The notes: generated from the letters alone by a model not told the origin. A DNA stretch of 32,000 nt from Nonlabens ponticola (GCF_003966335.1 NZ_CP034549.1:2550001-2582000); one strand, 5' to 3'; positions 1 through 14,532 are shown, counted from the stretch's first letter. Made by a program: numbers and translations.

Positions 1-516
1 AATCAAGTTGGGCTGATAGCCTTCTTTTCCCAAAGCCATTTTAAACTCTTCGGCGGTTCGTTCATAATTCTTGTTGTGAAGTACTTCCGAGAGCATTTCT
101 TTTTTCGCTGCTTGCATTCGGCCCCATTTTCCTTCTCCTTGCCAGTACTCTAAAATTTTATAGGTTTCTAAAAGTGTGAAACTTCTACGTCCCACCAAAT
201 CATTTTCAATGAAGTATGTAGAGAAGCGTTCATTGAAAGTAGTACGCGAATGAAGTCCGGTAATCTGGTAGAGCATTTTTTTAGGAATACGCTCTGGAAA
301 TAAGGGTTGGAAACCAGCAATTATTTGCTCGTTTTTAATTTCTTCGGAAGGAGTTTCCCATAAGTCAATAATCGAACTATAATGAGAAATGTAGATCATA
401 AAACGCCTGAACGATTTAAAATTATAGCTTATCAAACAAGCTGCAATAAACCACCAAGGTACGCTACCATTGTACCTTTCGTGAAATCTATCTATTTTAA
501 AATCTTCTTCTGTCAT
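1..516 (-). CDS. hypothetical protein (C-terminus runs off the left edge of the window)
   Basis: Hand translation of the reverse strand: ATG at 516-514, then 172 sense codons to position 1 with no stop (MTEEDFKIDRFHERYNGSVPWWFIAACLISYNF...GYQPNLI). It is missing from the ORF track only because it has no stop inside the window. No catalytic motif recognised. Confidence 0.5.
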   Translation of the reverse strand, partial: MTEEDFKIDRFHERYNGSVPWWFIAACLISYNFKSFRRFMIYISHYSSIIDLWETPSEEIKNEQIIAGFQPLFPERIPKKMLYQITGLHSRTTFNERFSTYFIENDLVGRRSFTLLETYKILEYWQGEGKWGRMQAAKKEMLSEVLHNKNYERTAEEFKMALGKEGYQPNLI

Positions 517-525
517 AGTTAATAT

Positions 526-556
526 ATGGTCGCAATCTATTACAGATTGCGACCAT
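526..556 (-). terminator. perfect 13-bp stem / 5-nt loop hairpin, probable terminator at the end of the long minus-strand operon
   Basis: ATGGTCGCAATCT (526-538), loop ATTAC, AGATTGCGACCAT (544-556), an exact reverse complement. It lies 8 nt downstream of the stop of the 43-aa ORF and 9 nt upstream of the ATG at 516. There is no strong U-tract, which is common in Bacteroidota. Confidence 0.5.
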
Positions 557-563
557 TACATTT

Positions 564-695
564 TTACTTCTTTCCTTTAGAACCAGAATTTCCAGAGTTA
601 CCTGAACTTGTTCGAGGTGGATTGTTTCCTCTACCTTTTCCGGATGCGTTTCCTGTTTTACTTGGTCCATTTACTGGTGTGTTTGACTTTGCCAT
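564..695 (-). CDS. possible 43-aa Gly/Asn/Ser/Lys-rich basic micro-protein
   Basis: Hand translation: MAKSNTPVNGPSKTGNASGKGRGNNPPRTSSGNSGNSGSKGKK, then stop. It is below the length cutoff of the ORF track. A hairpin follows directly. The low-complexity composition makes it uncertain. Confidence 0.3.
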   Translation of the reverse strand: MAKSNTPVNGPSKTGNASGKGRGNNPPRTSSGNSGNSGSKGKK

Positions 696-776
696 AATTT
701 TGGGTTTTTATATTAATAATGGCTCAAATATATATTGGGTCTTTTGAGTGTATTGTAAACTTTGGACGATAGGGTT

Positions 777-2237
777 TTATGCTATTTCCTTTAAAAAATA
801 ATCTCTCAAAATTTCCTTAAATTTTGGAGAGTTTATACCATTCGCTTTCTCCAATATTTTCTGTTTATTAAAATATTCGATACCATACTTTTTCGTTTTG
901 ACCTTAGCGTTTGCAAGTTTTTTTTCGGCGGCTTCTGTAAAACCACCAGTACTCCAGATCTCAAACGTGAGTGATTTTTCTGGATAAACATTCATAGCCC
1001 ATTTTCTTATAATCACAATTTTATTAGAAATATAGTCCTCGATATAATCTATATCAACTGGGTAATTATAGCCTTTACATTCAACGATTTTTACTTCATT
1101 TTCAAAAACTGCCAATACATCTATTTCCTTTGATTGGTTGGTTTCTTGTAATGTCACTCTTTTGCTTATATCTAAATTACGGCAATACTTACTATAGTAA
1201 TATCCAACAGCAAGTTCAAAAAGATCTCCTCTTAAATTGTTGGTTTTTCCATCTACTAGTTTGGTCAATTTCTCCATCAAATTGATGTATTGTTCTGGAT
1301 CTTTTTTTAGAATAGCTCCAGCATTAGTTACTATATTGATTAGAGATTTTAATAATTCACTATATTCATTTCCAAACAGTTCCCTTATGGAAGCTATCAG
1401 CACACCATTACTTTTTAGCTTATTAAGAGCCTTGGTCTTTATACCATCAACAATTATCACAGGAAAAAGATCTAGAACTGGATTTGAAGCTTTTATAGCT
1501 GCTATTTTTCTTAGAAAGAAACTAACCGTTTCTTCATTGGTATCATTACCTAACAAAATGTCTGCAATTAAAAAGCCTGGGTTTTTGACATTACCCTTGT
1601 ATCTGGTTAGTCCATCAATATATGTTGGTGCCGAAAATGCAAATTGAAAACCACCAACAACATTATTATTTTTACCCTTTTTAAAGGATGTCAAGCCTAT
1701 GTTTTTACTCCATATTTCAAATCTCTGTAAAACAATAGCTTTAGAAAGTTCAATTGCTTTTATATGACTTAAATTAGGATTATGTTTTCCACCAAGCAGC
1801 GCATTTAAGCCTAAAGTTTCGTCATCATATTTTCTAACAAAATCATTTTTCAAGAGAAGCTCAATAAGAGTGTCAAATTTCATATGACCATCAATGCGAC
1901 TTATTGGACTTATAGAATAATTTGCTAATTCCTTCATATTTACAAGCCCGTGATGAAATTTTATCGCCGTGATTATAGCACCTATTCTTTTAGCATCAGA
2001 CATTATAGCTGCTAGTAAACCATCGTAATATTCTTCGGTCTGATAGTCATCGGAGTGATAAATGAAAGACTTTTTATCACTAAAAATACCTTTCAATTTA
2101 TGAATTGGACTTTTAAAACGTTCGATTCTCTTTCTAGCCGCTTCCTCAGTAATACCGTACTTTTTTGACATTATACGAGATAAATCTCCCGATAATATTC
2201 CGCCGTTTTTTCTAATATGTGTTACTATTTTTGTCAC
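777..2237 (-). CDS. 486-aa protein with N-terminal wHTH-like segment and C-terminal PD-(D/E)xK nuclease-like core; last gene of the Gabija-containing operon
   Basis: N-terminus IVTHIRKNGGILSGDLSRIMSKKYGITEEAARKRIERF looks like a winged helix. C-terminus GDLFELAVGYYYSKY...KEIDVLAVFENEVKIVECKGY fits the E...D...ExK pattern of restriction-endonuclease-fold proteins. Apparent GTG start lies 20 nt after the upstream stop. Confidence 0.65.
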   Translation of the reverse strand: MTKIVTHIRKNGGILSGDLSRIMSKKYGITEEAARKRIERFKSPIHKLKGIFSDKKSFIYHSDDYQTEEYYDGLLAAIMSDAKRIGAIITAIKFHHGLVNMKELANYSISPISRIDGHMKFDTLIELLLKNDFVRKYDDETLGLNALLGGKHNPNLSHIKAIELSKAIVLQRFEIWSKNIGLTSFKKGKNNNVVGGFQFAFSAPTYIDGLTRYKGNVKNPGFLIADILLGNDTNEETVSFFLRKIAAIKASNPVLDLFPVIIVDGIKTKALNKLKSNGVLIASIRELFGNEYSELLKSLINIVTNAGAILKKDPEQYINLMEKLTKLVDGKTNNLRGDLFELAVGYYYSKYCRNLDISKRVTLQETNQSKEIDVLAVFENEVKIVECKGYNYPVDIDYIEDYISNKIVIIRKWAMNVYPEKSLTFEIWSTGGFTEAAEKKLANAKVKTKKYGIEYFNKQKILEKANGINSPKFKEILRDYFLKEIA

Positions 2238-2257
2238 ACCACGCTATTTATATAATA

Positions 2258-4276
2258 CTAACTGTCTTCAGCCTTGTCATTTTTTTTTATTTCAATGACG
2301 TCCCAAATATTTCGGTCGATTTCTTTTAAGTTTTTGTCAAATCTTGATTTCTCGACCGCAAAAGCTAATAAATGGGTTGGCCTCGAAAACCCAACATACA
2401 TCATCTTTAAAGTTTGATTTAGTTTAGCGGTGGCGGCCACGGTTAATCCTTTTGATGATACATCAATAGGAACACCGAAAAATTGGTCTTTAACTCTTTC
2501 GGATTCATACTTTCCATTCCAAAAAGTTTCTAGATAAAGACTTGCAGTATGAGTTTGCCCCTTAATATTATGTACCGTACCAACTTTGATTTGAAAACCA
2601 TCGTGATCATAATAGTTTTTAAATTCGTTTAGTTCTTCTTCATCTTTATGAACTGAAGGTGTAGTGATAAATGTATTGGAATTGTTAATTTCAGATCCAA
2701 ACCAAGAAAGTAGATTTGGTATGAAATCTCTTATTTCAGCTAGAGTATCATTTATGTTTGATTCAGCAAGATAAATACTCCAATTGTAAATTTTATTCTT
2801 AAAACCATCATATTCATTGAGGTGCATCTTTTTGATTGTGTGAATTAGACGGTATGGCGTCATATATCTATTATGTTCATCTTTTAAATTTTCAAGTCGA
2901 AAGACTTTAGTTAAACAGCTCAATATAGCAGAACGACCAGTCTTTAGAGAACCATTGTGTTTTGGTAAATAAAGTAAATAGTCTTCTAAAGTTTCAAACT
3001 CTAATTTACTTTTGGATGTATTACTTTTTAAGCTTGGGAGATAGGTGTTTAGACAAAGCTTATGGTCTTTATCTGTCTCTTTCCGCCATCCAAAAGCGTG
3101 GTAGTTTTGTGTAGAGATTGGTAGATATCCTTTTTCTTGATATTCACTTATCGTTTTAGAAAATCTAGGTATTACTTGATGAGCCTCTGTGACCTCAAAT
3201 ACGTACATTATTGGCTTTATATCAATTACACTATCGTCATCGTTATTTCCGCGACCTTCGACTTCTGTTGGTGTTGAAGACAAATTTTGTACAATACTAG
3301 CAACGCGAGGACTTAATCTATGACTTCCTTTAAAAAACAACTTATCCAATCTTTGATTCCAAATTTTTTCCGTGCTGATGTCTCCAGAGAAAATACATTG
3401 ATTTAAATCACCCAGGCGTTGCAATTTTGAAGTACAGCTATGACCTGTGAATAATTTTTCTATCAAACTTATTTGGTGCAGCTCCATATCCTGCATTTCA
3501 TCTACAAATACATACTGGAATCTTTGTTGTATTAATCGATCATAATCCTTTATTTCATCCAATAGCACATCAGCAAGAAAATAAGCGTCATCGTAGCAAA
3601 GCATTCCAGTCTCTAAGGTTTTTTCCTTTGTAATCTTTAACCATTCAGTGATCCTCTCAATTTCAAAAGGCGTGAACTTTACTCTTCTTGGATTTGGTGT
3701 TTTTACCTCTAGTAACTTGCCATTCATTTTGTGAACCATCACATAACCGCTTTTACTTTTTTGGAAACGGTAATTATATAATACGTTAAAAACGTTGTTG
3801 TAATAAATAGCATTATTCTTTTCTTGTCTTGAAAAGCCTTCTTTTCCGTAGTTGAAAAATTTTAATATTGTTTCATTGTAAATATCATTATCAATACGAG
3901 CAGGTTTTTGTTTGTATTTTAAAAGGTATGCAGGGATGGCTAAAAATGTGTCAACAAAACTTTGAATGGTACCAACAAAATTGGGATGAGAAAATAACTT
4001 AGGGCAAAGATGACCTATTCTATCTTTTATTTCATCTACAGCGGCATTTGTATGTGATATTACTAATATTCCCTTATTATCAAAAAGTGGTAGTTTTTTC
4101 TCTAAAATCAATAGCTTGGCGAGTAGAGCTGTAGTTTTTCCACTACCAGGAACAGCTTGAAGATCAATCGTAGTTAAGTTTTTTATAAAATCCGTACGCT
4201 CTTCATCAAAAGACCGGCCATTCTTAAGAAGTATTTCTTCCGCATAATTTATATCTTCCTCTCTAATATTAATCAT
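2258..4276 (-). CDS. gajB: UvrD/Rep/PcrA-like SF1 helicase, GajB-like (Gabija)
   Basis: Walker A AVPGSGKTTAL, motif Ia VISHTNAAVDEI, motif II YVFVDEMQDM, motif V/VI GTVHNIKGQTHTA and MYVGFSRPTHLL. The start overlaps the stop of the upstream OLD gene by 8 nt. Confidence 0.75.
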   Translation of the reverse strand: MINIREEDINYAEEILLKNGRSFDEERTDFIKNLTTIDLQAVPGSGKTTALLAKLLILEKKLPLFDNKGILVISHTNAAVDEIKDRIGHLCPKLFSHPNFVGTIQSFVDTFLAIPAYLLKYKQKPARIDNDIYNETILKFFNYGKEGFSRQEKNNAIYYNNVFNVLYNYRFQKSKSGYVMVHKMNGKLLEVKTPNPRRVKFTPFEIERITEWLKITKEKTLETGMLCYDDAYFLADVLLDEIKDYDRLIQQRFQYVFVDEMQDMELHQISLIEKLFTGHSCTSKLQRLGDLNQCIFSGDISTEKIWNQRLDKLFFKGSHRLSPRVASIVQNLSSTPTEVEGRGNNDDDSVIDIKPIMYVFEVTEAHQVIPRFSKTISEYQEKGYLPISTQNYHAFGWRKETDKDHKLCLNTYLPSLKSNTSKSKLEFETLEDYLLYLPKHNGSLKTGRSAILSCLTKVFRLENLKDEHNRYMTPYRLIHTIKKMHLNEYDGFKNKIYNWSIYLAESNINDTLAEIRDFIPNLLSWFGSEINNSNTFITTPSVHKDEEELNEFKNYYDHDGFQIKVGTVHNIKGQTHTASLYLETFWNGKYESERVKDQFFGVPIDVSSKGLTVAATAKLNQTLKMMYVGFSRPTHLLAFAVEKSRFDKNLKEIDRNIWDVIEIKKNDKAEDS

Positions 4277-6086
4277 TGCAAGCGTATTTTATGGCATCAA
4301 TTAGATATTTAATGCTCTGGTCGGTTTCATCAATAGGTAAAACGCTATTTTTTTCAATACTAGCAGCAACCTCATAGGCTATTTGAGTTTTATGTAAACC
4401 TTTATTAATTAATTTTTTTCCTAATTCCTGTTCTATATTTCCTTCATCTATTTGTGGGTGTGATTTCTTGAATGCTTGAAAAAAGAGTTTTGATAATGAA
4501 GTAGATTTTGAAAGAGCATATTCTAGAGTCCAATCTACGGCGACGAATGTTTTTACATTTTGAAAATTGAATTTCTGGACTATCTCCTCTCTTTTCATTG
4601 TAGATCTTTGCTTGATATCGTCTACATCTTCTTTAGTATATGTTTTTACAATTTCACCTTCTTCATTCTTATCAACATCTAACTTATAAGCTCTGACATC
4701 GACATCTGTAATTACTGCGACTGGAATATCAATCTTAGTGGTATCATTTTCTCGAAGGTAAATTCTAGAATATTGTTGAAATGCAGTATTGCCAACATTA
4801 ACAATGGATACACCTGCTTCCGTCAGATTTTTCGAGATATGGCCTTGCTCTTTGAGACGTTGAGCAATTGCCGGAATAAGTATTTCTTCAGACCAACCTT
4901 CAACCATAATAATACCATTAGCAAAAAATAAATTTGCCTTTGTAGCATCTAAGAACCTTTCTAAAAATGAGTAGTCTTCTTTTTTTAATTTTGTATGATT
5001 TGGGCCTAATGGGAATGCTGAATCGTTTGAGCAAATAATTAGGTTTTCTAATTTGATTTTTGATCCTAAATTGGGGCTATGAGTAGAGAGAATAAGCTGA
5101 ATTTGTTTTTGCTTTTGTAATGCCTCAATTATTTGCATCTGAGCTTGTGGATGCAAGTGCGCTTCGAGCTCCTCTATAAGACCTAATCTCAATCCTGACC
5201 AATCTCTTTTTTGTAGATGAAGCAATTCAGAAGCCATAAAAAGACGATTTAATGTGCCGAGTCCTGGATTTACTTCATCTTTTATAGACAGTTCTAATTT
5301 TTCAAGTATTGTCTTGAGATTATTACCTTTTACACCAAAAGCTGACTCCTTAGAATCATCATAAAAGGATTTAATATAACTGTCAATATCTGTTTTAAGT
5401 TCTTTACCTTTCAAATCTTCCTTTGGTAAATCTTCATCATCATTGTTTTTGCCTAAAAAGTATTTTTCTACAGAATTATTAAAATCTTTAAAGAGACCTA
5501 CAAGTAAGTGATCTAAATCCTTATTCTTAAAAGCTTCGTGTGCCTGAAGAATTTGAGTAAGTCTAGAATTTTTTCTCGGCACCAATTCAGATTTCGCATC
5601 TCGCAGTGGTCTGAGATATGTGGTTTTGAGGTAATCTTTTGCTTCTGCATTTAACTGAAAGCCTACTGGGTCTATCCCAGCTTTCACATCTGCTGGAAAA
5701 ATTCTATTACTTACTATATTCCTCCTTACCTCTAGTATTAACCGTAAATAACATCTCTTTTTACCATCAGCATCTTCAATCCATCCCAGCCATTCCGTAA
5801 AGTGTTTTGCTTCTTCAATCTCAAGATTCTCAAATACTATTTCTATTCTTAAATGTTCCGTGTTCAAAAAGAAATCGTCTTGGTCTATTTTATACCAATC
5901 ATAACTGTGTGTTTTTAAAACAATTTTGATAGCATCGATTATTGCAGATTTTCCTGAATCGTTTTTGCCTACTAAGACATTTATGCCTTCTGTAAAATCG
6001 AGATTAAGATTTGGTTTTGCCAAATCGATCTTTTCAGAACTACCAAATTTTCTAAAATTCCAAAGCTTTAAATTTTTTAAATACAT
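4269..6086 (-). CDS. gajA: OLD-family ABC ATPase plus TOPRIM nuclease, GajA-like (Gabija / class 2 OLD)
   Basis: N-terminal LKLWNFRKF...VGKNDSGKSAIIDAI (Walker A), LIEELEAHLHPQAQ (Walker B / D-loop typical of the AAA_15/OLD type), LILSTHSP (H-loop). C-terminal TOPRIM Glu IIMVEGWSEE and DxD VAVITDVDV. Directly followed by a UvrD-like helicase. Confidence 0.8.
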   Translation of the reverse strand: MYLKNLKLWNFRKFGSSEKIDLAKPNLNLDFTEGINVLVGKNDSGKSAIIDAIKIVLKTHSYDWYKIDQDDFFLNTEHLRIEIVFENLEIEEAKHFTEWLGWIEDADGKKRCYLRLILEVRRNIVSNRIFPADVKAGIDPVGFQLNAEAKDYLKTTYLRPLRDAKSELVPRKNSRLTQILQAHEAFKNKDLDHLLVGLFKDFNNSVEKYFLGKNNDDEDLPKEDLKGKELKTDIDSYIKSFYDDSKESAFGVKGNNLKTILEKLELSIKDEVNPGLGTLNRLFMASELLHLQKRDWSGLRLGLIEELEAHLHPQAQMQIIEALQKQKQIQLILSTHSPNLGSKIKLENLIICSNDSAFPLGPNHTKLKKEDYSFLERFLDATKANLFFANGIIMVEGWSEEILIPAIAQRLKEQGHISKNLTEAGVSIVNVGNTAFQQYSRIYLRENDTTKIDIPVAVITDVDVRAYKLDVDKNEEGEIVKTYTKEDVDDIKQRSTMKREEIVQKFNFQNVKTFVAVDWTLEYALSKSTSLSKLFFQAFKKSHPQIDEGNIEQELGKKLINKGLHKTQIAYEVAASIEKNSVLPIDETDQSIKYLIDAIKYACND

Positions 6087-6096
6087 ATGCTATAAT

Positions 6097-6468
6097 TTAC
6101 TCTCCAAAAATGTAATCATAAACAGATTTGCTGTCCAATGGACCAGCAAGACCATTCATACCTCTAGGCTTTGGCGCTAGTTTAAAAATGTATACCCATT
6201 TAGAAGCGATATTTGCTCCTTGTGGCTGCTTCATATTAAGTGTCCCTTTGTCAGAAAAGAAAGCTTCAACTTCATTAGCTTTCATCATCGTTCCTGCATT
6301 AATACATTTCCAATGAAGTATTTTTCCATTTCTGACCGAATGTTCTGCTTTGCGACGTTTTTCGTTATTTGTAATGCCTGCGTACCAACCATTAAACCGT
6401 GGGTTTTTACTGCCCATAGTATTTTTTACAAACTTGGTTAGTTCGCTTTTAATTGCTCTTGTTTCCAT
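6097..6468 (-). CDS. 123-aa hypothetical protein, weak GIY-YIG-like signature
   Basis: GWYAGITNNEKRRKAEH resembles the Y-[IV]-G-[IV]-T-x-[DN]-x-x-R-R-x-x-EH half of GIY-YIG/URI domains, and a later NEVEAFF could supply the conserved Glu. The first GIY strand is not evident. Starts 2 nt after the upstream stop and ends 10 nt before the gajA-like start. Confidence 0.55.
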   Translation of the reverse strand: METRAIKSELTKFVKNTMGSKNPRFNGWYAGITNNEKRRKAEHSVRNGKILHWKCINAGTMMKANEVEAFFSDKGTLNMKQPQGANIASKWVYIFKLAPKPRGMNGLAGPLDSKSVYDYIFGE

Positions 6469-6470
6469 AT

Positions 6471-8174
6471 TTAAGTTACATCTAAGATTTTGAAGTTGAG
6501 TTTTTTAGAAAAATAGAGTTCGTCGAAATAACCTTGTAAATAAGGATCTGGAACCAAATAGGCGTCACTTTCACACAGCTCTTTAAATTTTTGTGGATTT
6601 TTTAGAAACATTGCGCAAACATCAAGTTCATCTCTAGATAAAAGACGACCGTGAAGGAGTTCTCTAAATTCTAAATAGTCAATAAATTTCTTGAATCTAT
6701 TATTATATTCTGCACCCAACGTCTTCAGAAATATTTCTAAATCATCTATGCAAACAGACCAAGGGTAAAAGTCTTCGCTGCTTTTTTTGTTAAGTAAAAG
6801 ACCTAAATCTATTTGTAATGAAGCAAACCTCTCAGACGTAACAACTATTGTAAAGACATCAATGATTTGCGACGTATTTAAAACTTCGCTGTGATTTTTA
6901 CTCTTTATAGTTATTGCCTCATCATTTAGAATTGCTTGTTCTACCTCAAAACATTGTTCATACCCTTTTTGAATACAATAATCAAAGTCTGACCTTATTC
7001 TCTCTGTAGCTTTTTTAGTGTTTCTCCACGGTTCTCTGCTACGAGAGGCTTTACACTCAATTACAAATGCTATTCTGTTTACTATGTATAGCAAATCCTT
7101 TTCAGCGGGATTGCTATTAATATAATAGTTGTTGTATGAAGTGACATTTTTTGCTTTACTGAAAAATCTGTCAAATATGTTTTGAGTTTGAGACTCTAAA
7201 ATAACCTTTCCTCTTCTTAAATTAAGTTGCTCTTTTTCCTTTTCTGTTTCAGTAAGAACTTGATAGAGCAGTTTGTAAACCGCATTAGGTAATTGCTTTT
7301 GAAATACATTCAAAAATGTTTTGTTATTAATTTTTATGATTGGTTTATGCTCTAATGGGTTGGGTTGTGAGTAAAATAAGTTATCAAATGAATCATTAAT
7401 ATCTATGGATAATAATTTACAGAAAACATCTACATCCTTCTTATTGAAAGACTTGTAGTAGTCATCTTTTGTAAATAATAAACAGCTGTGCGGATTCTCA
7501 AAAAAATCTAGAAAATTATCTTGTAATTCTAAAGGAAGTTGAGACAGACTTTCTTCAAATTTTCCAGCTTGAGCGTTTTGCACAAAATCTTTCATTCTTG
7601 GATCAAAGAGAAAACTTTTTGATGCAATGGCTTTTCTTTGATAATCATCCTCTGAAAACTCACAGAGTGCCATTAATGTTTTTAAGTCAATTCCTAGTCT
7701 TTCTTTTATTTTATCTTGATAGGGTTTAAATAAGCGAATTACTTTATTAAGTTCTTGTTCTCTATAATCAAGTACACCATTTTGAAAATAATCTTTAAAA
7801 GCAAGTTCGTGGATCAGCATTTCTGACCTATCTTCTTTTGATACAGTCGTATCAAATCTTGAATAATCCCACAAATAGAAACTAACAATTTCGAGCAAAA
7901 TTTCTCCAACTTTTTGAAGTATTTTATCATTCTCTTCGGAATAATAGAAGTCCTCAGATCCTACTTCATCAGAGGAAAGTCTCAGCATAATAAGATAAAT
8001 TGAATCCTTGTACTTAGACTTGAATTTTTCAGAAAAGCTCAATTGATTTCGTTCTGGATGATGACGCACGAAGTCTGCAAAGAAGCATACAAAGCTTTCT
8101 TTGGTATATCTTGAAATTATCTGTTGAATTTCAATTGATTTCTGTTCTATATCGACTCCCTTCATTTGCTCCAT
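6471..8174 (-). CDS. 567-aa hypothetical protein with NERD-like / PD-(D/E)xK motif in the C-terminal half
   Basis: RRGKVILESQTQNIFDRFF...EKDLLYIVNRIAFVIECKASRS fits the E...D...ExK nuclease core. No P-loop seen. Its ATG overlaps the TAA of the Type IIG gene (TAATG at 8172-8176), implying translational coupling. Confidence 0.65.
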   Translation of the reverse strand: MEQMKGVDIEQKSIEIQQIISRYTKESFVCFFADFVRHHPERNQLSFSEKFKSKYKDSIYLIMLRLSSDEVGSEDFYYSEENDKILQKVGEILLEIVSFYLWDYSRFDTTVSKEDRSEMLIHELAFKDYFQNGVLDYREQELNKVIRLFKPYQDKIKERLGIDLKTLMALCEFSEDDYQRKAIASKSFLFDPRMKDFVQNAQAGKFEESLSQLPLELQDNFLDFFENPHSCLLFTKDDYYKSFNKKDVDVFCKLLSIDINDSFDNLFYSQPNPLEHKPIIKINNKTFLNVFQKQLPNAVYKLLYQVLTETEKEKEQLNLRRGKVILESQTQNIFDRFFSKAKNVTSYNNYYINSNPAEKDLLYIVNRIAFVIECKASRSREPWRNTKKATERIRSDFDYCIQKGYEQCFEVEQAILNDEAITIKSKNHSEVLNTSQIIDVFTIVVTSERFASLQIDLGLLLNKKSSEDFYPWSVCIDDLEIFLKTLGAEYNNRFKKFIDYLEFRELLHGRLLSRDELDVCAMFLKNPQKFKELCESDAYLVPDPYLQGYFDELYFSKKLNFKILDVT

Positions 8175-11100
8175 TACCCATTCTCCACAATCCTAATCTC
8201 CTCATCACTCAATCCATACAACTGATACACCATTGCATCTATTTGTTGTTCTAGGGTGTTGATTTGTGATTGTAGGTCTTGTGCTTTTTTCTTGTTTTGT
8301 TCAAACAGGTCTAACCATTCAAACTCGTCTGTTTTGGTAAGTACGGCAACCGGTGCTTGACCTTCTTTATCTCGCAATTTGTTAGTGGCTTTAATCGCTT
8401 TGTTCAGTTCTTTTATAAACTCCCCAAAATCTAAATCTTGCCAGTTTTCGAGTTTGCGTGATGTTTTAAGTAACTGAAATTTTACAAAAAGGTATTTTAC
8501 AAATTTTACTTTCAAAGAATTAAGCTCTGGTTGTAGTTTTTGAAGTTTTAAGCCATATTGCGAAATGTCATTTCTTTGAGTAAAATCCGTACCTGGCAAA
8601 GGAAAAGCACCTAATTTATCCAAACTAATTTTTGCAAATACTTTTCCTTTGATATCGTGTAACAGTCTATAGAAGATTGTAGCTACCTGAGAATTTAAAA
8701 TGGTAAGTAAGAAATCTAATGAATATTCCTCATTATTCTCATAAATACCGTGAACTAGAGTATCAAAATAATAATTGTTATTGTCTTTTGCTGCGATAAA
8801 TCTATCTCCTGTTTTTCTGACTACAATTTTCTCATTTTCAAATAATTCAGGTGTTCTTAAAGCAAAGTCTATTCGAGTTTGCTTTTTCATTCCTTTCTTA
8901 CTCTGGATATCATCTAAGTTCAAGTTATCAGCAATGTTGTAATCATAATTAACAAATTGTCCGCCCCATTGGATAGAATTTGTATTTAACTCTTTTCCCC
9001 AAATAATCGGTTTGTGATTATCGGAAAGCTTTTCATCTGTAATAAGTATTTGTTTAATATTACCAGGATTGAGACCGTTTTTTAAGGTGTAAAACTCTCT
9101 TATCGTTTTAAGGGTATGGAGTTTTTTTACTATCAAGTTTGCACCTTCGGCAATCGGCGATATTTCAAAGTGAGGAACTGAAAGAAAAAACTCTTGAGAA
9201 ATATCATTTACTAACGCCGTTTGACCATCGTAATCAAAATATTTGTCAGCCGAAATCAACTTCATCTCATTAGAAATATTGGGATTATCAACGATTTCAT
9301 ATTTAAGTATTAGACTACCGCCAACTTCTGCATCAGGGAAGATCTTCTCAGAAATCATAAAGACCTCGTGTATTTTTGACTTAGTGAGAAGGTATTCGCG
9401 AATATCTTTGAAATAAGTGTTGAATAAGAGTGATTTTGGAATTATGAATTGAATTAAACCCTTCTCAAATATTTGAAACATTCGCTCTATGAACAAAATA
9501 TAGAGGTTAATCTTATAGCTTGTTAAAGGGTAATTCTTTTTGTAATAAGCCTCTTCACCGTCAGACAAGAAAATTCCATAAGGCGGATTCCCAATCACAA
9601 CATCAAAACCTCCGTTTGCAAACACTTTCGCGAAAGCGGTCTCCCAGTTAAAAGCTTTATCTCCCGCTATGGTTTTACTGTCTATTAAACTATTACCACA
9701 TTTTATATTACTGCTCAAATCGTTGAGCTTACGGCGTGGTTGTGCGGTGCGTAGCCAGAGTGAAAGCTTCGCAATCTCTACAGACTCCTCGTTTAGATCT
9801 ACGCCATAAATATTGTTCTCTAGTATGGTGTTTTCTATATCTGGAAACTGTAAGCCACCACCTAGAATTTTGGTCTTAAGCTCGTCTATGTACTGATGTT
9901 CTTTGATGAGAAAATCCAGCGCCTGGTTAAGAAATGCACCAGAGCCACAAGCAGGATCACAAATAGTAATCTGTAGCAACCAGTCACGGTAGGTGTCTAG
10001 CGTTTCAACTAGCTTTTGTATGGTCTTGTCGTTTCGCTTCTTTCTTCCGGTACCACGGCCTTTAAAATACTCTTCTTCTTTAAAACCAAGTTCGGTTTTT
10101 CTATCATCGCATAGTTTACCTACGGTATTTTCTACAATGTATTTTGTGATGTACTTAGGCGTGTAAAAAACACCATCCTTCTTACGCTTGCTTTTCTGTT
10201 TGTCAAAGTTGCCACCTTCTATTTCGGCATTAATGCTTTCAATCTCGTTGAGAGAATTTTCAAAAATATGACCAAGGATATTGACATCTACTTGGCTTTC
10301 AAAATCGTAAGTCGCCAGTTTTTTAGTGTGATTGTAAAGTAAATCATCATCGATAATCACACGATCCAGTATAGAATCTGGTTTAAAGAGACCACCATTG
10401 TAGGCAAAAATCTCTTTGTTTTCTGCATCGCCCTTACGGCCTTTATCCAGGTAGTTAAAGTGCTTTTTAAAACGATCGTACAACGGCTCATCTACATCCA
10501 GCTTGCGTATGGTGTCCCATTCTGCAAGTCGTTTTATGGTATAATTGGGTTGTAAGAGTCCGCGATCTTCTGCAAAAAAGATAAAGAGAAAGCGATCTAT
10601 AAGTTTCTGCGACTTTTTAAAAAGCGTGAGCTTTACATTTTTCTCCAGGCGTTCAAGATCTGACTGGTGTTCTGCATTATCTGTAATACCAGTCTCTTCC
10701 TGTAACGCGACTTTTAAGACTTTACCGTTTTTCTTGACCAGATCACGGTATAGCTCACGTTTAAAAAGCGAATAATCTTTATAAAACTCTTTGGTAATTT
10801 CTTCTTCTTTAATAAGAGAATCCTGCTTTATTTGAAGCGGTAATTCCTTGAGCAAATTGTCTTTGTACAAACACAAATACAACAATCCAAAGTCATCTCG
10901 TGTAAGGTTAAACAAGTCAAAGTCCAGTAACTCTGTAGTGTCATCTATGTAAAAACGTAGTTTTTCAAAATTAGACGTGATGACAAACCTGCATCCTTTG
11001 TGATTTACCTTATAATCAAAAGCCTGACGTCTTATGCTTTCCAGATCCTTTGTATTTGTCCCTTTAAGTTCTACAACGGCTACTGTTTTTTCTTCTGTGA

Positions 11101-11374
11101 TAATGGCACCGTCTGCCTTGCGATTATTTTTCTCGTTTTTGTATTCTGTAGTTAGGTTGTATTTTGGCTTAGGATTAATGGTATAATCAAGCACGTTTAC
11201 AAAGAGTTCTGTAAGAAAAGTAGCCTGTATTTGCTCCTCGTTACTCTTGTCTATATTTTGCTGTATCTCAAGGTTGAGAAAGAATTTAGTGTACTTGCGA
11301 TATGCCTTATCTACTGCGTTTGTGTCCTGTTGTGCGAGATATTTTTTGAGTACAGATGTCTGGAATAATGCCAT
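8174..11374 (-). CDS. Type IIG/IIL-style fused restriction endonuclease, N6-adenine methyltransferase and specificity protein
   Basis: 1066 aa. N-terminal PD-(D/E)xK-like ADGAIITEEKTVAVVELKGTNTK. Gamma-class MTase motif I ICDPACGSGAFL followed by motif IV VVIGNPPYG. A long C-terminal region is consistent with a TaqI-like target-recognition domain. Confidence 0.8.
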   Translation of the reverse strand: MALFQTSVLKKYLAQQDTNAVDKAYRKYTKFFLNLEIQQNIDKSNEEQIQATFLTELFVNVLDYTINPKPKYNLTTEYKNEKNNRKADGAIITEEKTVAVVELKGTNTKDLESIRRQAFDYKVNHKGCRFVITSNFEKLRFYIDDTTELLDFDLFNLTRDDFGLLYLCLYKDNLLKELPLQIKQDSLIKEEEITKEFYKDYSLFKRELYRDLVKKNGKVLKVALQEETGITDNAEHQSDLERLEKNVKLTLFKKSQKLIDRFLFIFFAEDRGLLQPNYTIKRLAEWDTIRKLDVDEPLYDRFKKHFNYLDKGRKGDAENKEIFAYNGGLFKPDSILDRVIIDDDLLYNHTKKLATYDFESQVDVNILGHIFENSLNEIESINAEIEGGNFDKQKSKRKKDGVFYTPKYITKYIVENTVGKLCDDRKTELGFKEEEYFKGRGTGRKKRNDKTIQKLVETLDTYRDWLLQITICDPACGSGAFLNQALDFLIKEHQYIDELKTKILGGGLQFPDIENTILENNIYGVDLNEESVEIAKLSLWLRTAQPRRKLNDLSSNIKCGNSLIDSKTIAGDKAFNWETAFAKVFANGGFDVVIGNPPYGIFLSDGEEAYYKKNYPLTSYKINLYILFIERMFQIFEKGLIQFIIPKSLLFNTYFKDIREYLLTKSKIHEVFMISEKIFPDAEVGGSLILKYEIVDNPNISNEMKLISADKYFDYDGQTALVNDISQEFFLSVPHFEISPIAEGANLIVKKLHTLKTIREFYTLKNGLNPGNIKQILITDEKLSDNHKPIIWGKELNTNSIQWGGQFVNYDYNIADNLNLDDIQSKKGMKKQTRIDFALRTPELFENEKIVVRKTGDRFIAAKDNNNYYFDTLVHGIYENNEEYSLDFLLTILNSQVATIFYRLLHDIKGKVFAKISLDKLGAFPLPGTDFTQRNDISQYGLKLQKLQPELNSLKVKFVKYLFVKFQLLKTSRKLENWQDLDFGEFIKELNKAIKATNKLRDKEGQAPVAVLTKTDEFEWLDLFEQNKKKAQDLQSQINTLEQQIDAMVYQLYGLSDEEIRIVENG

Positions 11375-11552
11375 GAAGATTACTAGGTAAAAGTATTCCT
11401 CTAAAGTAATGAAGAATAATTCTTTCCAGACAGGTTTGTTTTATTCTGCTTTCGCGAAAGTGTAAATAACTGAGGTTGTATATACCTTAAAGCTTTTGTC
11501 GTATCCTAATGGCAAGTGATAGGAGGTTCTGTTTTTGATACAATTGATATTA

Positions 11553-11915
11553 TCAATCAATGAGAATCCTCGTTAGTTCATCTAGTAGGTCATCTAGCTT
11601 TTGTTTTTCAATTCCCGATAAATAATTTAATGCATTTAATTTTTTCATCAATTGATTAAGATTTATACCTATCCTATGTAGCTCAACTTGTTGATAAGGT
11701 GCTATCATCTGAGTCACATTGAGCTTTTTGTTTTTCATACAGTCCAGTAAAAAACGTCTAATGAATCTACCATCGTATTGCGTTTTCATACTATACATTT
11801 CGCAATATTTAATAACAAAGTCCTTTTCAATTTTCGTGAGATATAGATTTATTTGATGATCTCTTTTCATGTCTGGATTATCAATCTCTGGACGTCCTCC
11901 TTTTTTTTTGGCCAT
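11553..11915 (-). CDS. MobC-family (Bacteroides MobA-type) relaxosome accessory / RHH-like protein
   Basis: 120 aa. HRIGINLNQLMKKLN matches the G-x-N-x-NQ-x-x-x-x-N signature of the mobilisation protein MobC family. No relaxase gene follows it. Confidence 0.6.
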   Translation of the reverse strand: MAKKKGGRPEIDNPDMKRDHQINLYLTKIEKDFVIKYCEMYSMKTQYDGRFIRRFLLDCMKNKKLNVTQMIAPYQQVELHRIGINLNQLMKKLNALNYLSGIEKQKLDDLLDELTRILID

Positions 11916-12190
11916 AATTCTGATCTAAGAATATTTCATTTTTACCAATTAATCTAGTTTTAATTTTTCGAGTTTACGATGAAAAACAAGGCTATTTCAT
12001 TTTTGATGAAATAGGTTTTTCACTTGTAAATTTGCTGACTAGCTAATTTTGCAATGTGCAAAACACACCTTGCTATTCCTCTTCCATTTTATTTTTGTTC
12101 ATTTTATTTCTTGATCGTTTTTTTTCAATTTCTGGATGGTTTTTAATTCTTGAGGTTTTATAGCTCAATTATTATATTTTTATAATGTTA

Positions 12191-12323
12191 TAATTCTATA
12201 TCTCTATATTTTTATATCTCTATAATCTTATAATGCTATAATTCTATAATCTTATATTTTTATATCTCTATAATCTTATAATGCTATAATGCTATAATGC
12301 TATAATGTTATAATGTTATAATT
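12191..12323. repeat. AT-rich tandem repeats (two ~48-bp units, then five 8-bp units); candidate iterons / oriT-oriV region
   Basis: An exact 38-bp repeat TATATTTTTATATCTCTATAATCTTATAATGCTATAAT occurs at 12205-12242 and 12253-12290 (period 48). ATAATGCT x3 then ATAATGTT x2 run from 12278 to 12317. Related TATAATGTTATAATT at 12181-12195. Confidence 0.8.
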
Positions 12324-12410
12324 ACAGAACTCTATAGCGCTGTGATTCTATAATCATATTCTTCTACTATACTTCCTTCGTTTTTTTATGAAAATTTTTA
12401 GCATGTAGAG

Positions 12411-12437
12411 TTATTCCAAAAACTGATTTTGGAATAA
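12411..12437. other. perfect 11-bp stem / 5-nt loop inverted repeat in non-coding DNA
   Basis: TTATTCCAAAA (12411-12421), loop ACTGA, TTTTGGAATAA (12427-12437). Confidence 0.6.
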
Positions 12438-12876
12438 ACCTCTTATAAGATGACAAGCATCAGAAGATACCTTACACGACTTGTTAAACATCGGAGGAAC
12501 TAAGGGGTCCAGTCAGTAAGATTGAATCACGTCCTTCCGAACATATTGTTACCTTTAATTAAAGTGGGATAGAAAATTATATGTTTTCATATAAGATTTC
12601 TCCATTTGTCAAAACTTGAGCTTTTAGCATTTTAAGATAAGCTGCGGATGTTTTTATAAGTGAATTTGAAATCCAAAAAGGATTACGACAAAAATATTAG
12701 TAATAGCACGTCTAATTGAGATGATTTAAGTCAAAGGTGTTGGCTCGAATTATAATCGATCTTAATTTGATAAGCCTTACTAAATTGATTTACCAACCAA
12801 TAAATGTAATTGATGGGACAAAAGTTTAGAAGCGGGAATATTGTCAAACACCCACTGCATATATTTTACTCGATCG

Positions 12877-13287
12877 TCACGTTTTTTTTCTTCTGTTAAT
12901 CCACTCTTTATAAGCAAGAATGACGTCAGCAACGTAGGTTGCATCAAAGTGTCCAAAATGATCAACTTTCCTATCAAATGTTCTCCATCTTGCATGTTGT
13001 AGGGCGTAGTGAAATTCCTCAAGACTTAATGTTGAATGATTATATAGCATCATATCGTTTATATCCGTCACTTGAGATCGAGTTGGTCTATTTTTTAGTC
13101 TTAAAACATTTGCATTTAATTTTATTATCACTGATACGCCGTAGTTTCTTTTGACGTCATTTAAATCTTTTATTTTATCGAATGTGCTTTTCAATTCTTT
13201 AAACTTATTAGGCCTCAGTTTAGAAATTCGTTTTAATTTCTTGAGAAAAGCTTCGCTCGCGCGATTGGACTGATTTTCGGTTGACAT
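12877..13287 (-). CDS. hypothetical protein (136 aa)
   Basis: Longest ORF in this stretch, co-oriented with and closely spaced to its neighbours. No motif recognised. Confidence 0.5.
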   Translation of the reverse strand: MSTENQSNRASEAFLKKLKRISKLRPNKFKELKSTFDKIKDLNDVKRNYGVSVIIKLNANVLRLKNRPTRSQVTDINDMMLYNHSTLSLEEFHYALQHARWRTFDRKVDHFGHFDATYVADVILAYKEWINRRKKT

Positions 13288-13296
13288 AACTGTTTT

Positions 13297-13479: not shown

Positions 13480-13511
13480 TTTCAGAGTAGTTTCAAAATC
13501 AAGAGCATCAT

Positions 13512-14471: not shown

Positions 14472-14532
14472 GGCATCTAATTTTTGATACCGCAATTTTA
14501 CCACGCATTAGCAAATGCTTAGTTTGTGAATG

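What the first reader, a model, noticed from the sequence alone, without database searches (positions are those of the whole stretch)
777..11374. Six defence-type genes fused into one translationally coupled minus-strand operon (Type IIG RM, three unknowns, Gabija pair)
Gene junctions read from the sequence are TAATG overlap (8172-8176), a 2-nt gap (6469-6470), a 10-nt gap (6087-6096), an 8-nt overlap (4269-4276) and a 20-nt gap (2238-2257). None leaves room for a promoter or terminator. The first convincing hairpin comes only after the operon (526-556). The operon therefore packs two recognisable systems (Type IIG RM, GajA/GajB-like OLD plus UvrD) together with three unassigned proteins, each showing a nuclease-like motif. 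Known Gabija is a two-gene system and Type IIG enzymes are single genes. This tight interleaving with extra nuclease-motif genes is not something I recognise as described. It suggests either a larger integrated system or obligatory co-regulation.
Basis: partly seen in the sequence, partly recalled or inferred. Interest (0 to 1): 0.7.

Follow-up and report, generated by a model that had tools for sequence, protein, structure and literature searches.

The report
Modular defence-gene array on a mobile element
The six tightly packed genes are real, but they are a stack of separately exchangeable anti-phage modules carried by a mobile element in a marine flavobacterium, not one fused six-part machine; one of the unknown genes carries its own strikingly conserved control sequence.

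Summary
Six minus-strand ORFs (777-11374) have exactly the stated junctions. They encode an MmeI-type Type IIG enzyme, GajA/GajB, and three uncatalogued nuclease-like proteins: p567, p123 and p486.

The "one integrated system" reading is not supported. Across about 180 related loci the modules occur in nearly every combination:
- p567 follows Gabija, Wadjet, SIR2-HerA, IetAS or Type IIG.
- p123 is a GIY-YIG-like small gene. It sits 10-12 nt in front of three Gabija subtypes or an Avs2-like protein.
- p486 is a wHTH + PD-(D/E)xK nuclease. It lies beside Gabija, SIR2-HerA, pAgo or Type IIG, and is the only large cargo gene on 4.7-5.7 kb ColE1-type plasmids.

Sister elements carry the same gene order as a mosaic. 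p567, p123 and p486 are 95-98% identical, but GajA is 67%, GajB 50%, and the Type IIG recognition region is swapped.

New here: p486 genes carry a near-invariant motif, TATAAATAG-YG-NNNN-GTGACA, at or within about 13 nt upstream of the start codon. It is conserved from Bacteroidota to Alpha- and Gammaproteobacteria at 27% protein identity. So p486 has its own cis-element inside the 20-nt gap and the GajB 3' end.

A looser link between Gabija-type pairs and these nucleases remains possible.

Verdict: an ordinary mobile defence island holding three untested candidate defence genes.

The parts
11553..11915 (-). MobC-like mobilisation protein gene (120 aa), the last backbone gene before the array
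   Evidence: Pfam PF05713 MobC at 2e-5. Further upstream lie HTH_17 (14166-14504) and a tyrosine integrase (15671-16921).
11375..11552 (-). 178-nt intergenic region upstream of the Type IIG gene; the inferred position of the array's main promoter
   Evidence: Sequence read. DNA homology with the sister elements begins at or near the IIG ATG at 11374, so this region is not shared with them. The promoter itself is inferred and was not demonstrated.
8174..11374 (-). MmeI-family Type IIG restriction-modification enzyme (1066 aa)
   Evidence: PADLOC PDLC03609 at 2.5e-253. Pfam MmeI_N, MmeI_hel, MmeI_Mtase, Eco57I, N6_Mtase and TaqI_C. The target-recognition region, about 9576-8482, has no DNA homology to sister elements although the flanks are about 94% identical.
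6471..8174 (-). p567: a single-polypeptide PD-(D/E)xK (NERD-type) nuclease with a large helical N-terminal region; the conserved start is probably at 8165
   Evidence: No Pfam, PADLOC or NCBIfam hit for the window protein, but many homologues carry PF08378 NERD. D360/E373/K375 are invariant. AF2 pLDDT 92.8, pTM 0.91. The best PDB match is Upx, 9wuf, E 8.4e-4, TMq 0.31.
6097..6468 (-). p123: a small stand-alone GIY-YIG-like protein; a leader gene that precedes large defence effectors
   Evidence: A narrow family of 15 hits. A profile search reached 219 small proteins; 25 of the 60 scanned hit Pfam GIY-YIG. It lies 10-12 nt upstream of three Gabija subtypes or an Avs2-like 980-aa protein in loci with full context; the partner in L096/L097 is cut off.
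4269..6086 (-). GajA (OLD-family ABC ATPase + TOPRIM nuclease)
   Evidence: PADLOC GajA PDLC00099 at 1.7e-238, full length. Pfam AAA_15 and OLD-like_TOPRIM.
2258..4276 (-). GajB (UvrD-type helicase)
   Evidence: PADLOC GajB PDLC00146 at 1.5e-299, full length. Pfam UvrD-helicase. About the last 55 codons belong to the 95%-identical block shared with sister elements, whereas the rest is only about 50% identical at protein level.
2232..2289 (-). Conserved p486 leader element: an A-tract (2280-2289) plus AGTTAGTATTATATAAATAGCGTGGT-GTG-ACA. The GajB stop codon lies inside it.
   Evidence: The core TATAAATAGCGTGGTGTGAC is at 2233-2252 and occurs once in the window. A strict regex matched 71 times in 2.54 Mb of fetched loci, always at a p486 start. 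It is also present upstream of the Klebsiella, E. coli, Rhizobium and Agrobacterium homologues, with a TTAATAG variant in Pseudomonas. No RNA structure was predicted.
777..2237 (-). p486: N-terminal winged-helix-like modules, a middle alpha/beta domain and a C-terminal PD-(D/E)xK nuclease (GTG start)
   Evidence: Weak NERD hit (18 bits) and PADLOC CARF_PDDEXK at 1.2e-6 over residues 284-393. D373/E386/K388 are invariant. AF2 pLDDT 88.6. Foldseek matches: Can2 8bao 1.4e-5, Card1, AF1548 and NucS/EndoMS.
565..695 (-). Conserved 43-aa G/S/N/K-rich ORF that travels with the array
   Evidence: 100% identical in sister elements and 70-76% identical in L003 and T. maritimum. It is called as a gene in L081-L089. 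Function unknown.
526..556 (.). Perfect 13-bp-stem hairpin between the 43-aa ORF and the next gene
   Evidence: sequence read. The T-run is on the plus strand only.
1..516 (-). 5' part of a conserved 243-aa gene of unknown function; backbone shared with the sister elements
   Evidence: It lies in the 94-95% identical DNA block shared with L081-L086. The 243-aa gene directly follows the 43-aa ORF in those elements. No Pfam or PADLOC hit.

Best explanation
The region is the cargo (defence-island) segment of an integrase- and MobC-bearing integrative mobilisable element of Nonlabens ponticola. Several self-sufficient immune modules are strung head-to-tail on one strand:
1. An MmeI-type Type IIG restriction-modification enzyme.
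2. p567, a single-protein PD-(D/E)xK (NERD-type) nuclease.
3. A Gabija pair (GajA/GajB), preceded by a small GIY-YIG-like leader gene, p123.
4. p486, a DNA-binding (winged-helix) PD-(D/E)xK nuclease with its own conserved 5' control element.

The tight junctions come from compaction and from repeated allele or cassette replacement by homologous recombination between related elements. They do not reflect physical or functional fusion into one machine.

Shown here: the gene identities, the intact catalytic motifs, the independent distribution of every module, the mosaic structure, and the p486 cis-element.

Inferred: the array is largely co-transcribed from upstream of the Type IIG gene. p486 is additionally controlled through its conserved motif, most likely by binding of its own N-terminal winged helix at a core promoter (autoregulation). 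The modules give layered protection. The restriction enzyme cuts unmodified incoming DNA. Gabija acts as a nucleotide- or DNA-end-sensing nuclease-helicase complex. p567 and p486 act as further stand-alone nucleases whose non-catalytic domains sense infection.
For: Identities.

Source and context: p567 is 100% identical to a Nonlabens ponticola protein. An integrase, HTH_17 and a MobC-like gene lie upstream.

Independence of the modules:
- Only one element family (L001, L081-83, L098) shares the six-gene order.
- L003 lacks p486.
- In T. maritimum an unrelated 288-aa ORF replaces p567, p486 is absent, and the Gabija pair is a different subtype.
- L100 and L103 have p123-Gabija-p486 without IIG or p567.
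- L104 and L108 have IIG-Gabija-p486 without p567 or p123.
- L008, L009 and L102 have p486 directly followed by p567.
- L002 has a 91%-identical p567 with none of the others.

Neighbours of each unknown:
- p567 follows complete Gabija, Wadjet JetABCD, IetAS or SIR2-HerA systems. The upstream gene is co-directional in 49 of 59 dereplicated groups.
- p486 neighbours include SIR2-HerA, a long pAgo and Type IIG.
- p486 is the only large cargo gene on 4.7-5.7 kb ColE1-type plasmids.
- p123 also precedes an HSDR_N + Avs2-like 980-aa protein.

Mosaic: 93-95% DNA identity in the flanks, with replaced segments in the IIG recognition region and in GajA-3'/GajB.

p486 leader.
Against: - No transcript data exist, so co-transcription, internal promoters and the role of the p486 motif are all inferences.
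- None of p567, p123 or p486 has been tested for defence, and PADLOC v2 (2023) has no model for them.
- p486 lies within three genes of an OLD+UvrD pair in 6 of 18 dereplicated groups, and again in Agrobacterium. That may mean more than island co-residence.
- p123 precedes a Gabija pair in most of the few lineages where it occurs.
- Forty of the 59 genes immediately upstream of p567 were not annotated, so the breadth of its partners is only partly known.
Confidence: 0.7

Rival explanations
1. 'Gabija-plus': the array is not one six-part system, but p123 and/or p486 (and perhaps p567) are true accessory components of Gabija-type OLD+UvrD systems. They might act as extra effector nucleases or as a regulator, so the functional unit here would be p123-GajA-GajB-p486.
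For: - p123-GajA-GajB-p486 occurs as a separate block, with p123 following a long intergenic region that contains a terminator-like hairpin (L100, L103).
- p123 precedes three different Gabija subtypes: PDLC00099/146, 00093/111 and 00083/138.
- p486 lies within three genes of an OLD+UvrD pair in 6 of 18 dereplicated groups, spanning several GajA subtypes and several arrangements.
- An Agrobacterium plasmid has AAA-ATPase, then UvrD, then a p486 homologue at 28% identity.
- p567 directly follows GajB-type helicases in 7 of 59 dereplicated groups, including Dysgonomonas at 34% identity.
Against: - p486 is the only large cargo gene on small ColE1-type plasmids.
- p486 also sits next to SIR2-HerA, pAgo and Type IIG genes, or among genes that were not identified.
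- Its orientation relative to Gabija varies: upstream, downstream, convergent and divergent. That is atypical for subunits of one system.
- It carries its own conserved cis-element.
- p123 also precedes a non-Gabija Avs2-like effector.
- Gabija pairs occur without either gene in T. maritimum (no p486) and in L104-L108 (no p123).
- No baseline rate of Gabija adjacency for defence-island genes was computed, and the counts are small.
Confidence: 0.17
2. One reading: all six genes form one obligatorily co-regulated, integrated multi-nuclease defence system.
For: Tight junctions and no minus-strand terminator-like site inside the array. The same six-gene order is present in many flavobacterial assemblies; the p123 allele P0228 is indexed in 169 blocks of the collection.
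Against: - All those copies belong to one element family.
- Within that family the Type IIG recognition region and the Gabija pair are swapped alleles: GajA is 67% and GajB 50% identical, against 95-98% for the neighbouring genes.
- Every sub-combination of the modules exists elsewhere.
- Type IIG enzymes and Gabija are each complete known systems.
Confidence: 0.05
3. p567 is not an immune gene but a backbone gene of Bacteroidota ICEs and IMEs, for example a nuclease used in transfer, exclusion or maintenance. On this view it marks the edge of a cargo hotspot, which would explain why variable defence systems lie just upstream of it.
For: p567 is usually the last gene of a co-directional cluster (49 of 59 groups). 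Mob or tra genes (MobC-like, relaxase, T4CP, TraG) lie within seven genes downstream in 11 of 49 groups. At least five different systems precede it.
Against: - Most p567 loci show no mob or tra genes nearby.
- In the window and its sister elements p567 lies in the middle of the cargo, and in T. maritimum an unrelated ORF replaces it.
- Its best structural match is the single-protein defence nuclease Upx.
- NERD-type nucleases have experimental support in defence (HEC-02B; preprint 10.1101/2024.01.29.577857).
Confidence: 0.08

Closest known systems
Defence islands and cargo hotspots on mobile elements, including defence genes 'embedded' within other systems (Payne et al. 2024 preprint, 10.1101/2024.01.29.577857)
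   Same: Several unrelated immune systems are packed co-directionally on an integrase-bearing element. Variable cassettes sit between conserved flanks. Uncharacterised nuclease genes are nested between known systems.
   Different: The packing here is unusually tight, from -8 to +20 nt across five junctions. The nested genes (p567, p123, p486) are not in PADLOC v2, which includes that paper's HEC candidates.
Gabija (GajA OLD-family ATPase-TOPRIM + GajB UvrD helicase)
   Same: Full-length, high-scoring GajA and GajB with overlapping reading frames.
   Different: A GIY-YIG-like 123-aa gene precedes the pair and a wHTH-PD-(D/E)xK gene follows it. Neither belongs to the canonical two-gene system. 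The published 'GajC' is a MazF-like replacement for GajA (PMC13069673) and is unrelated.
MmeI-family Type IIG restriction-modification enzymes
   Same: A single polypeptide with MmeI_N nuclease, spacer, gamma-type N6A methyltransferase and TaqI_C recognition domains. Specificity diversifies by swapping the recognition domain between alleles.
   Different: Nothing notable beyond its position as the first gene of the array.
Upx, a single-protein PD-(D/E)xK defence nuclease (PDB 9wuf; PMC13099982; terminase sensing, PMC13601566)
   Same: It is the best structural match of the p567 model (Foldseek E 8.4e-4, probability 1.0). The catalytic pattern is analogous: D...E-x-K, with D360/E373/K375 in p567 and D1161/E1176/K1178 in Upx. 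Both are single-polypeptide nucleases with large non-catalytic regions.
   Different: p567 is 567 aa, whereas Upx is a three-domain protein whose residue numbering runs to 1272 (the solved chain is 1212 residues). TMq is only 0.31. No sequence-level similarity was found: there was no PADLOC hit of any kind, and the profile search of PDB sequences was negative.
Can2/Card1-type CRISPR ancillary nucleases and NucS/AF1548-type PD-(D/E)xK domains
   Same: These are the best structural matches of p486 (8bao at 1.4e-5, 6xl1, 1y88, 2vld). PADLOC CARF_PDDEXK models give weak hits over residues 284-393.
   Different: Global TM scores are low (0.2-0.27). A ligand-binding CARF domain was not established. 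p486 has N-terminal winged-helix-like modules and no CRISPR context.
NERD-domain nucleases (PF08378), e.g. HEC-02B
   Same: A PD-(D/E)xK core of NERD type. Many p567 homologues carry PF08378, and some p486 homologues are named NERD by their sources.
   Different: The window's p567 has no PF08378 hit at E <= 0.01, and p486 scores below the Pfam gathering threshold. Neither is paired with a dedicated ABC ATPase as HEC-02 is.

Membership tests
Type IIG restriction-modification (MmeI family) | Single polypeptide with an N-terminal PD-ExK endonuclease domain, a helical spacer, a gamma-class N6-adenine methyltransferase (NPPY) and a C-terminal target-recognition domain | tested here: met
   Pfam: MmeI_N 28.9 bits (cut-off 27), MmeI_Mtase 52.7, Eco57I 145.6, TaqI_C 65.9. 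MmeI_hel scores 24.4, just under its cut-off of 27. PADLOC REase_MTase_IIG at 2.5e-253. The GNPPYG and DPACGSG motifs can be read in the translation.
Type IIG restriction-modification (MmeI family) | Cleavage and methylation activity at a defined recognition site | not testable with these tools
   Requires enzymology or methylome data.
Gabija | GajA: OLD-family ABC ATPase fused to a TOPRIM nuclease | tested here: met
   PADLOC GajA at 1.7e-238 over residues 1-605. Pfam AAA_15 and OLD-like_TOPRIM.
Gabija | GajB: a UvrD-type helicase encoded immediately downstream of GajA | tested here: met
   PADLOC GajB at 1.5e-299 over residues 1-663. Pfam UvrD-helicase. The frames overlap by 8 nt.
Gabija | The two genes are sufficient for defence (no third component) | not testable with these tools
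   Comparative data show Gabija pairs of the same subtypes without p123 (L104-L108) or without p486 (L003, L084-89). Sufficiency itself needs an assay.
   The full set occurs only in one flavobacterial element family. Among the 177 related loci gathered for this test, all partial combinations and many unrelated partners were found.
Single operon | Co-directional genes with junctions too short for terminators | tested here: met
   Junctions range from -8 to +20 nt. There is no minus-strand terminator-like site between 777 and 11374.
Single operon | One transcript and no internal promoters | not testable with these tools
   Needs RNA-seq or 5'-end mapping. The conserved p486 leader argues that at least one internal control element exists.
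Upx | Sequence membership in the Upx family | tested here: not met
   p567 gave no PADLOC hit at E <= 0.01. Whether PADLOC v2 includes an Upx model rests on my recollection. The p567 profile found no Upx chain among PDB sequences at E <= 10.
Upx | A roughly 1200-1270-aa three-domain architecture (NTD, MD, CTD) with two nuclease domains | tested here: not met
   p567 is 567 aa with one PD-(D/E)xK core. Upx domain boundaries are taken from PMC13099982.
Upx | Fold similarity and a D...ExK catalytic core | tested here: inconclusive
   Foldseek E 8.4e-4 and probability 1.0, but TMq 0.31 and rmsd 11.7. The catalytic triad is present.
NERD domain (PF08378) | Pfam match above the gathering threshold | tested here: inconclusive
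   p567 from the window has no hit at E <= 0.01, but about 40 homologues carry a precomputed PF08378. p486 scores 18.0 bits against a cut-off of 22.1.
GIY-YIG nuclease superfamily (p123) | Match to PF01541 and the conserved Y/R/H/E catalytic residues | tested here: inconclusive
   p123 itself has no Pfam hit. Of 60 superfamily members found by profile search, 25 hit PF01541, with a best E of 6.5e-5. W28, Y29, G31, T33, R39, H43 and E68 are conserved. The canonical N-terminal 'GIY' strand was not found in its usual place, and no structure model was made.
CARF-nuclease (Can2/Card1) | A CARF ligand-sensing domain fused to a PD-(D/E)xK nuclease | tested here: inconclusive
   The nuclease-domain similarity is clear. 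The middle domain (about residues 185-290) was not shown to be CARF. The overall TM score is 0.2-0.27.

The most novel reading that the evidence does not exclude
p486, and possibly p567 and p123, may be portable 'plug-in' nuclease modules that work together with whichever system they sit beside, above all Gabija-type OLD+UvrD pairs. In that case p123-GajA-GajB-p486 would be an extended Gabija variant. p486 would be held in check by autoregulation through its cross-phylum-conserved operator and released as a second-line effector.
Probability: 0.15. Interest if true: 0.7.

Novelty: new member of a known kind. Interest (0 to 1): 0.45.

Why it matters
As proposed, a fused six-gene super-system, the finding does not hold. 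It is a compact mobile defence island, which is a well-known kind of locus. Its value lies in what it exposes.

1. A natural series of sister elements shows allele and cassette replacement inside a fixed gene order: the Type IIG specificity domain, the Gabija subtype, and the presence or absence of p567 and p486.

2. Three uncatalogued nuclease families show strong guilt-by-association.
- p567 trails at least five different known systems.
- p123 is a leader gene in front of Gabija or an Avs-like effector.
- p486 is widespread (355 plasmid records), is the only large cargo gene on tiny enterobacterial plasmids, and carries a roughly 20-30-nt non-coding motif conserved across phyla.

The p486 case is directly testable in E. 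coli. It would give either a new single-gene defence or anti-plasmid system with a defined operator, or a new accessory of Gabija.

Tried and rejected
- **Direct family searches on the three unknowns.** Pfam, PADLOC, NCBIfam and PDB-sequence searches gave nothing, or only sub-threshold NERD and CARF_PDDEXK hits.
- **Are p567 and p486 paralogues?** The hhalign probability is 4.5%, and only the D..ECK core aligns. I treat them as separate families.
- **Is the p486 leader an RNA element?** RNAalifold on 32 diverse sequences predicted 0 pairs. Rfam gave no hit in 1-17400 apart from two sub-threshold sRNA matches between the integrases. Rejected.
- **Is the p486 leader one end of a mobile cassette?** There is no inverted copy in any locus and no conserved 3' flank. 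Rejected.
- **Is it a Bacteroidota TAnnTTTG promoter?** The motif does not match that consensus. The composite TTTG...TAnnTTTG pattern gave one chance-level hit elsewhere in the window. The sigma-70 scan is not informative in this phylum.
- **Motif scan of IMG/VR viral contigs.** No hits.
- **A universal leader upstream of p567 or p123?** None found.
- **Is the wider p123 superfamily also a leader of big effectors?** No. Two distant members sit in generic mobile or phage-like contexts.
- **'GajC' in the literature.** It is an unrelated MazF-like protein.
- **Extending the source genome beyond the window.** Look-ups of the exact window proteins failed because they are not on record.


Full report
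**1. The observation**

The six minus-strand ORFs exist at exactly the stated coordinates. I read each junction from the sequence:
- IIG|p567: TAATG overlap.
- p567|p123: 2-nt gap.
- p123|GajA: 10-nt gap.
- GajA|GajB: 8-nt overlap.
- GajB|p486: 20-nt gap before a GTG start.

No minus-strand terminator-like site lies inside the array. Three small corrections apply. First, M4 is invariant in a 20-sequence p567 family alignment and the NCBI protein is 564 aa, so the first junction is probably an 8-nt spacer. Second, a conserved 43-aa ORF (565-695) lies between p486 and the hairpin at 526-556. Third, that hairpin has its T-run on the plus strand only.

**2. Gene identities**

The first gene is an MmeI-family Type IIG enzyme (PADLOC 2.5e-253; Pfam MmeI_N, MmeI_Mtase, Eco57I, TaqI_C). 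The fourth and fifth are full-length GajA (1.7e-238) and GajB (1.5e-299).

The three unknowns have no significant hit in Pfam, PADLOC v2 or NCBIfam. None is similar in sequence to a solved structure.

The window comes from Nonlabens ponticola, because p567 is 100% identical to a protein from that species. Upstream of the array lie a MobC-like gene, an HTH_17 gene and a tyrosine integrase. A second integrase is divergently oriented and leads into another defence array. The array is therefore cargo of an integrative mobilisable element.

**3. What the unknowns are**

*p567.* Its family has 107 detected members, almost all in Bacteroidota, and many carry Pfam NERD. D360, E373 and K375 are invariant. 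The AlphaFold model is confident (pLDDT 92.8, pTM 0.91). It shows a large helical N-terminal region followed by a PD-(D/E)xK core. The only significant PDB match is the single-protein defence nuclease Upx (9wuf, E 8.4e-4, probability 1.0), but TMq is only 0.31. Upx is a three-domain protein numbered to residue 1272, with a D1161/E1176/K1178 core (PMC13099982). p567 is Upx-like at most in part, and it fails the tests for Upx membership.

*p123.* Its close family is tiny, with 15 hits. A profile search reached 219 small proteins. Of the 60 I scanned, 25 hit Pfam GIY-YIG. The conserved residues (W-Y-x-G-I-T, R39, H43, E68) fit a divergent stand-alone GIY-YIG-type domain.

*p486.* Its family has more than 314 members. 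D373, E386 and K388 are invariant. The model (pLDDT 88.6) shows N-terminal winged-helix-like modules, a middle alpha/beta domain and a C-terminal PD-(D/E)xK domain. The best structural matches are Can2, Card1, AF1548 and NucS/EndoMS. p567 and p486 are not detectably related beyond the catalytic core.

**4. Is it one system? The comparative test**

I fetched 80 genomic loci around p567 homologues, 80 metagenomic loci around p486 homologues and 17 loci around p123 homologues. I mapped all six proteins onto them and clustered the neighbouring genes.

The full six-gene order appears only in one family of flavobacterial elements: L001, L081-83 and L098. There it is a mosaic. p567, p123, p486 and the 43-aa ORF are 95-100% identical to the window, but GajA is 67%, GajB 50% and IIG 65-71%. 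At DNA level the flanks are 93-95% identical. The IIG recognition region (about 9576-8482) and the GajA-3'/GajB segment (about 3783-2425) have no detectable homology. Homology starts at or near the IIG start codon, so the upstream backbone differs.

Elsewhere the modules recombine freely:
- L003 has IIG-p567-p123 with a different Gabija subtype and no p486.
- T. maritimum has IIG, an unrelated 288-aa ORF, p123 and that same other Gabija subtype, with no p486.
- L100 and L103 have p123-Gabija-p486 only.
- L104 and L108 have IIG-Gabija-p486 only.
- L008, L009 and L102 have p486 directly followed by p567.
- L002 has a 91%-identical p567 with none of the other five genes.

p567 directly follows complete Gabija, Wadjet JetABCD, IetAS or SIR2-HerA systems. 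It is often followed by a MobC-like gene, a relaxase and a T4CP, or by TraG. After dereplication, the gene upstream of p567 is co-directional in 49 of 59 groups and lies within 100 nt in 32 of them.

p123 homologues at 55-56% identity sit 11 nt upstream of a 980-aa HSDR_N + Avs2-like protein instead of GajA.

p486 neighbours include SIR2-HerA, a long pAgo, Type IIG enzymes and a remote Wadjet-like gene set.

p486 homologues at about 27% identity and full length occur on 355 plasmid records. On the 4.7-kb Klebsiella plasmid pKP121-4 and the 5.7-kb E. coli plasmid pKFu022_3, the homologue is the only large cargo gene.

**5. A residual signal**

OLD+UvrD pairs lie within three genes of p486 in 6 of 18 groups dereplicated at 70% identity, and within three genes of p567 in 5 of 35. 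The p486 cases involve several GajA subtypes and several orientations. An Agrobacterium plasmid shows AAA-ATPase, then UvrD helicase, then a p486 homologue. p123 precedes three distinct Gabija subtypes.

I could not compute a proper baseline, and defence islands inflate adjacency of this kind. I therefore keep a 'Gabija-plus' reading as a rival at about 0.17.

**6. The unexpected feature**

The sequence just 5' of p486 is far more conserved than the gene itself. The motif is T-nn-TATAAATAG-Y-G-NNNN-GTG-ACA, preceded by an A-tract at about -50 to -44. In the window this is 2232-2289, and the GajB stop codon lies inside it.

- A strict regex matched 71 times in 2.54 Mb of all fetched loci, every time at a p486 start and nowhere else.
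- It is conserved down to about 34% protein identity, whatever lies upstream.
- GTG is the start codon in 93% of 43 dereplicated sequences. Positions the regex did not constrain are also fixed: T at -15 in 100% and T at -18 in 98%.
- The same motif lies 9-13 nt upstream of an ATG in the Klebsiella, E. coli, Rhizobium and Agrobacterium plasmid homologues. Pseudomonas carries a TTAATAG variant in the same position.
- No conserved RNA structure is predicted. There is no Rfam match, no inverted copy and no conserved 3' flank. I found no copy in viral contigs and no mention in the literature.

Promoter recognition differs between Bacteroidota and Proteobacteria (established knowledge). The family's N-terminal helix 'AARKR(I/V)xR' is conserved, with K36 and R40 invariant. 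The most economical inference is an operator, overlapping a core promoter, that the protein's own winged helix binds. This is inference only. It does show that p486 carries its own cis-element, which contradicts the claim that there is no room for a promoter.

**7. Mechanism**

Shown: every module is intact and is distributed independently of the others.

Inferred: the array is co-transcribed from upstream of IIG, with at least one internal control point at p486, and it gives layered immunity.
- The Type IIG enzyme restricts unmodified DNA.
- Gabija acts as described in the literature, as a GajA/GajB nuclease-helicase complex (papers cited in PMC13069673).
- p567 and p486 act as additional stand-alone PD-(D/E)xK nucleases whose non-catalytic domains provide sensing or regulation.
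- p123's role is unknown. A small GIY-YIG-type nuclease or regulator co-expressed with the effector downstream of it is the best guess.

**8. Novelty and verdict**

The locus is a new member of a well-known kind, a compact defence island on a mobile element (compare the 'embedded' defence genes of preprint 10.1101/2024.01.29.577857). It is not a new integrated system.

It does contain three uncatalogued candidate defence genes. The p486 family, with its cross-phylum motif and its presence on small plasmids, is the most attractive experimental target.

Interest 0.45.

Noticed in passing
window 2232-2289 (minus strand); also L001, L008-L009, L081-L083, L098-L177, L178-L182: A near-invariant non-coding motif (A-tract ... 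TnnTATAAATAG-YG-NNNN-GTGACA) lies at or within about 13 nt upstream of the start of p486-family genes. It is conserved from Bacteroidota to Alpha- and Gammaproteobacteria, where the proteins are only about 27% identical. GTG is the start codon in 93% of dereplicated Bacteroidota-type copies. The motif holds stop codons in all three frames.
   Followed up: yes
L004-L051 (p567 loci), e.g. L012:6003-11710, L036:3413-15620, L022:7030-11641, L004:6474-15616: p567 homologues are typically the last gene of co-directional clusters made of different complete defence systems (Gabija, Wadjet, IetAS, SIR2-HerA, Type IIG). In a minority of dereplicated groups (11 of 49), relaxase, T4CP or TraG genes of Bacteroidota mobile elements follow within seven genes.
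   Followed up: yes
window 17328-29940 (+ strand): A second, divergently oriented integrase-borne defence array. It holds an SNF2/HKD-type helicase (PADLOC C3a139 1e-120; weaker HmaA and DrmD hits), DUF4391, a GmrSD-type enzyme (Orf5 6e-86, HEC-06 8e-59) and a Type III-like methyltransferase (2e-217). It resembles an Hma-like system with an embedded GmrSD.
   Followed up: partly
window 9576-8482 (within the Type IIG gene): The target-recognition region of the Type IIG enzyme has no DNA homology to sister elements, although both flanks are 92-95% identical. This is an apparent specificity-domain swap between alleles.
   Followed up: partly
window 565-695 (minus strand): A 43-aa ORF rich in G, S, N and K (MAKSNTPVNGPSKTGNASGKGRGNNPPRTSSGNSGNSGSKGKK). 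It is conserved 70-100% and always travels with the array and the downstream 243-aa gene. Function unknown.
   Followed up: partly
window ~12180-12340: An AT-rich run of short tandem repeats (ATTATAACATTATAGC... and TATAGAGATATAAAAATATA...) lies in the 960-nt gap between the 136-aa ORF and the MobC-like gene. It might be an oriT- or iteron-like region of the element.
   Followed up: no
window 17056-17154 (+), between the two divergent integrase genes: A weak Rfam match to the Bacteroides sRNA BTnc005: 29.9 bits against a gathering score of 174.8, E 0.0019. It is probably a chance match.
   Followed up: no
L102:~5000-10000 and L103:9650-15848: A four-gene set next to p486 (442 aa, 226 aa with a weak MukE hit, 1098 aa with a weak JetC hit, 312 aa with a weak JetD_C hit). 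It looks like a very divergent Wadjet-like system; only its JetC-like protein reached the 1e-8 PADLOC cut-off used.
   Followed up: partly
L052, L055, L059, L061, L079 (about 35-45 nt upstream of distant p567 homologues): A recurring 'G(T/C)CATGCTA' motif lies upstream of the roughly 29%-identity subgroup of p567 genes. It may be a subgroup-specific regulatory site.
   Followed up: no
L084-L089:9130-9996: In Tenacibaculum maritimum an unrelated 288-aa ORF with no Pfam or PADLOC hit occupies exactly the p567 slot between the Type IIG gene and p123.
   Followed up: partly
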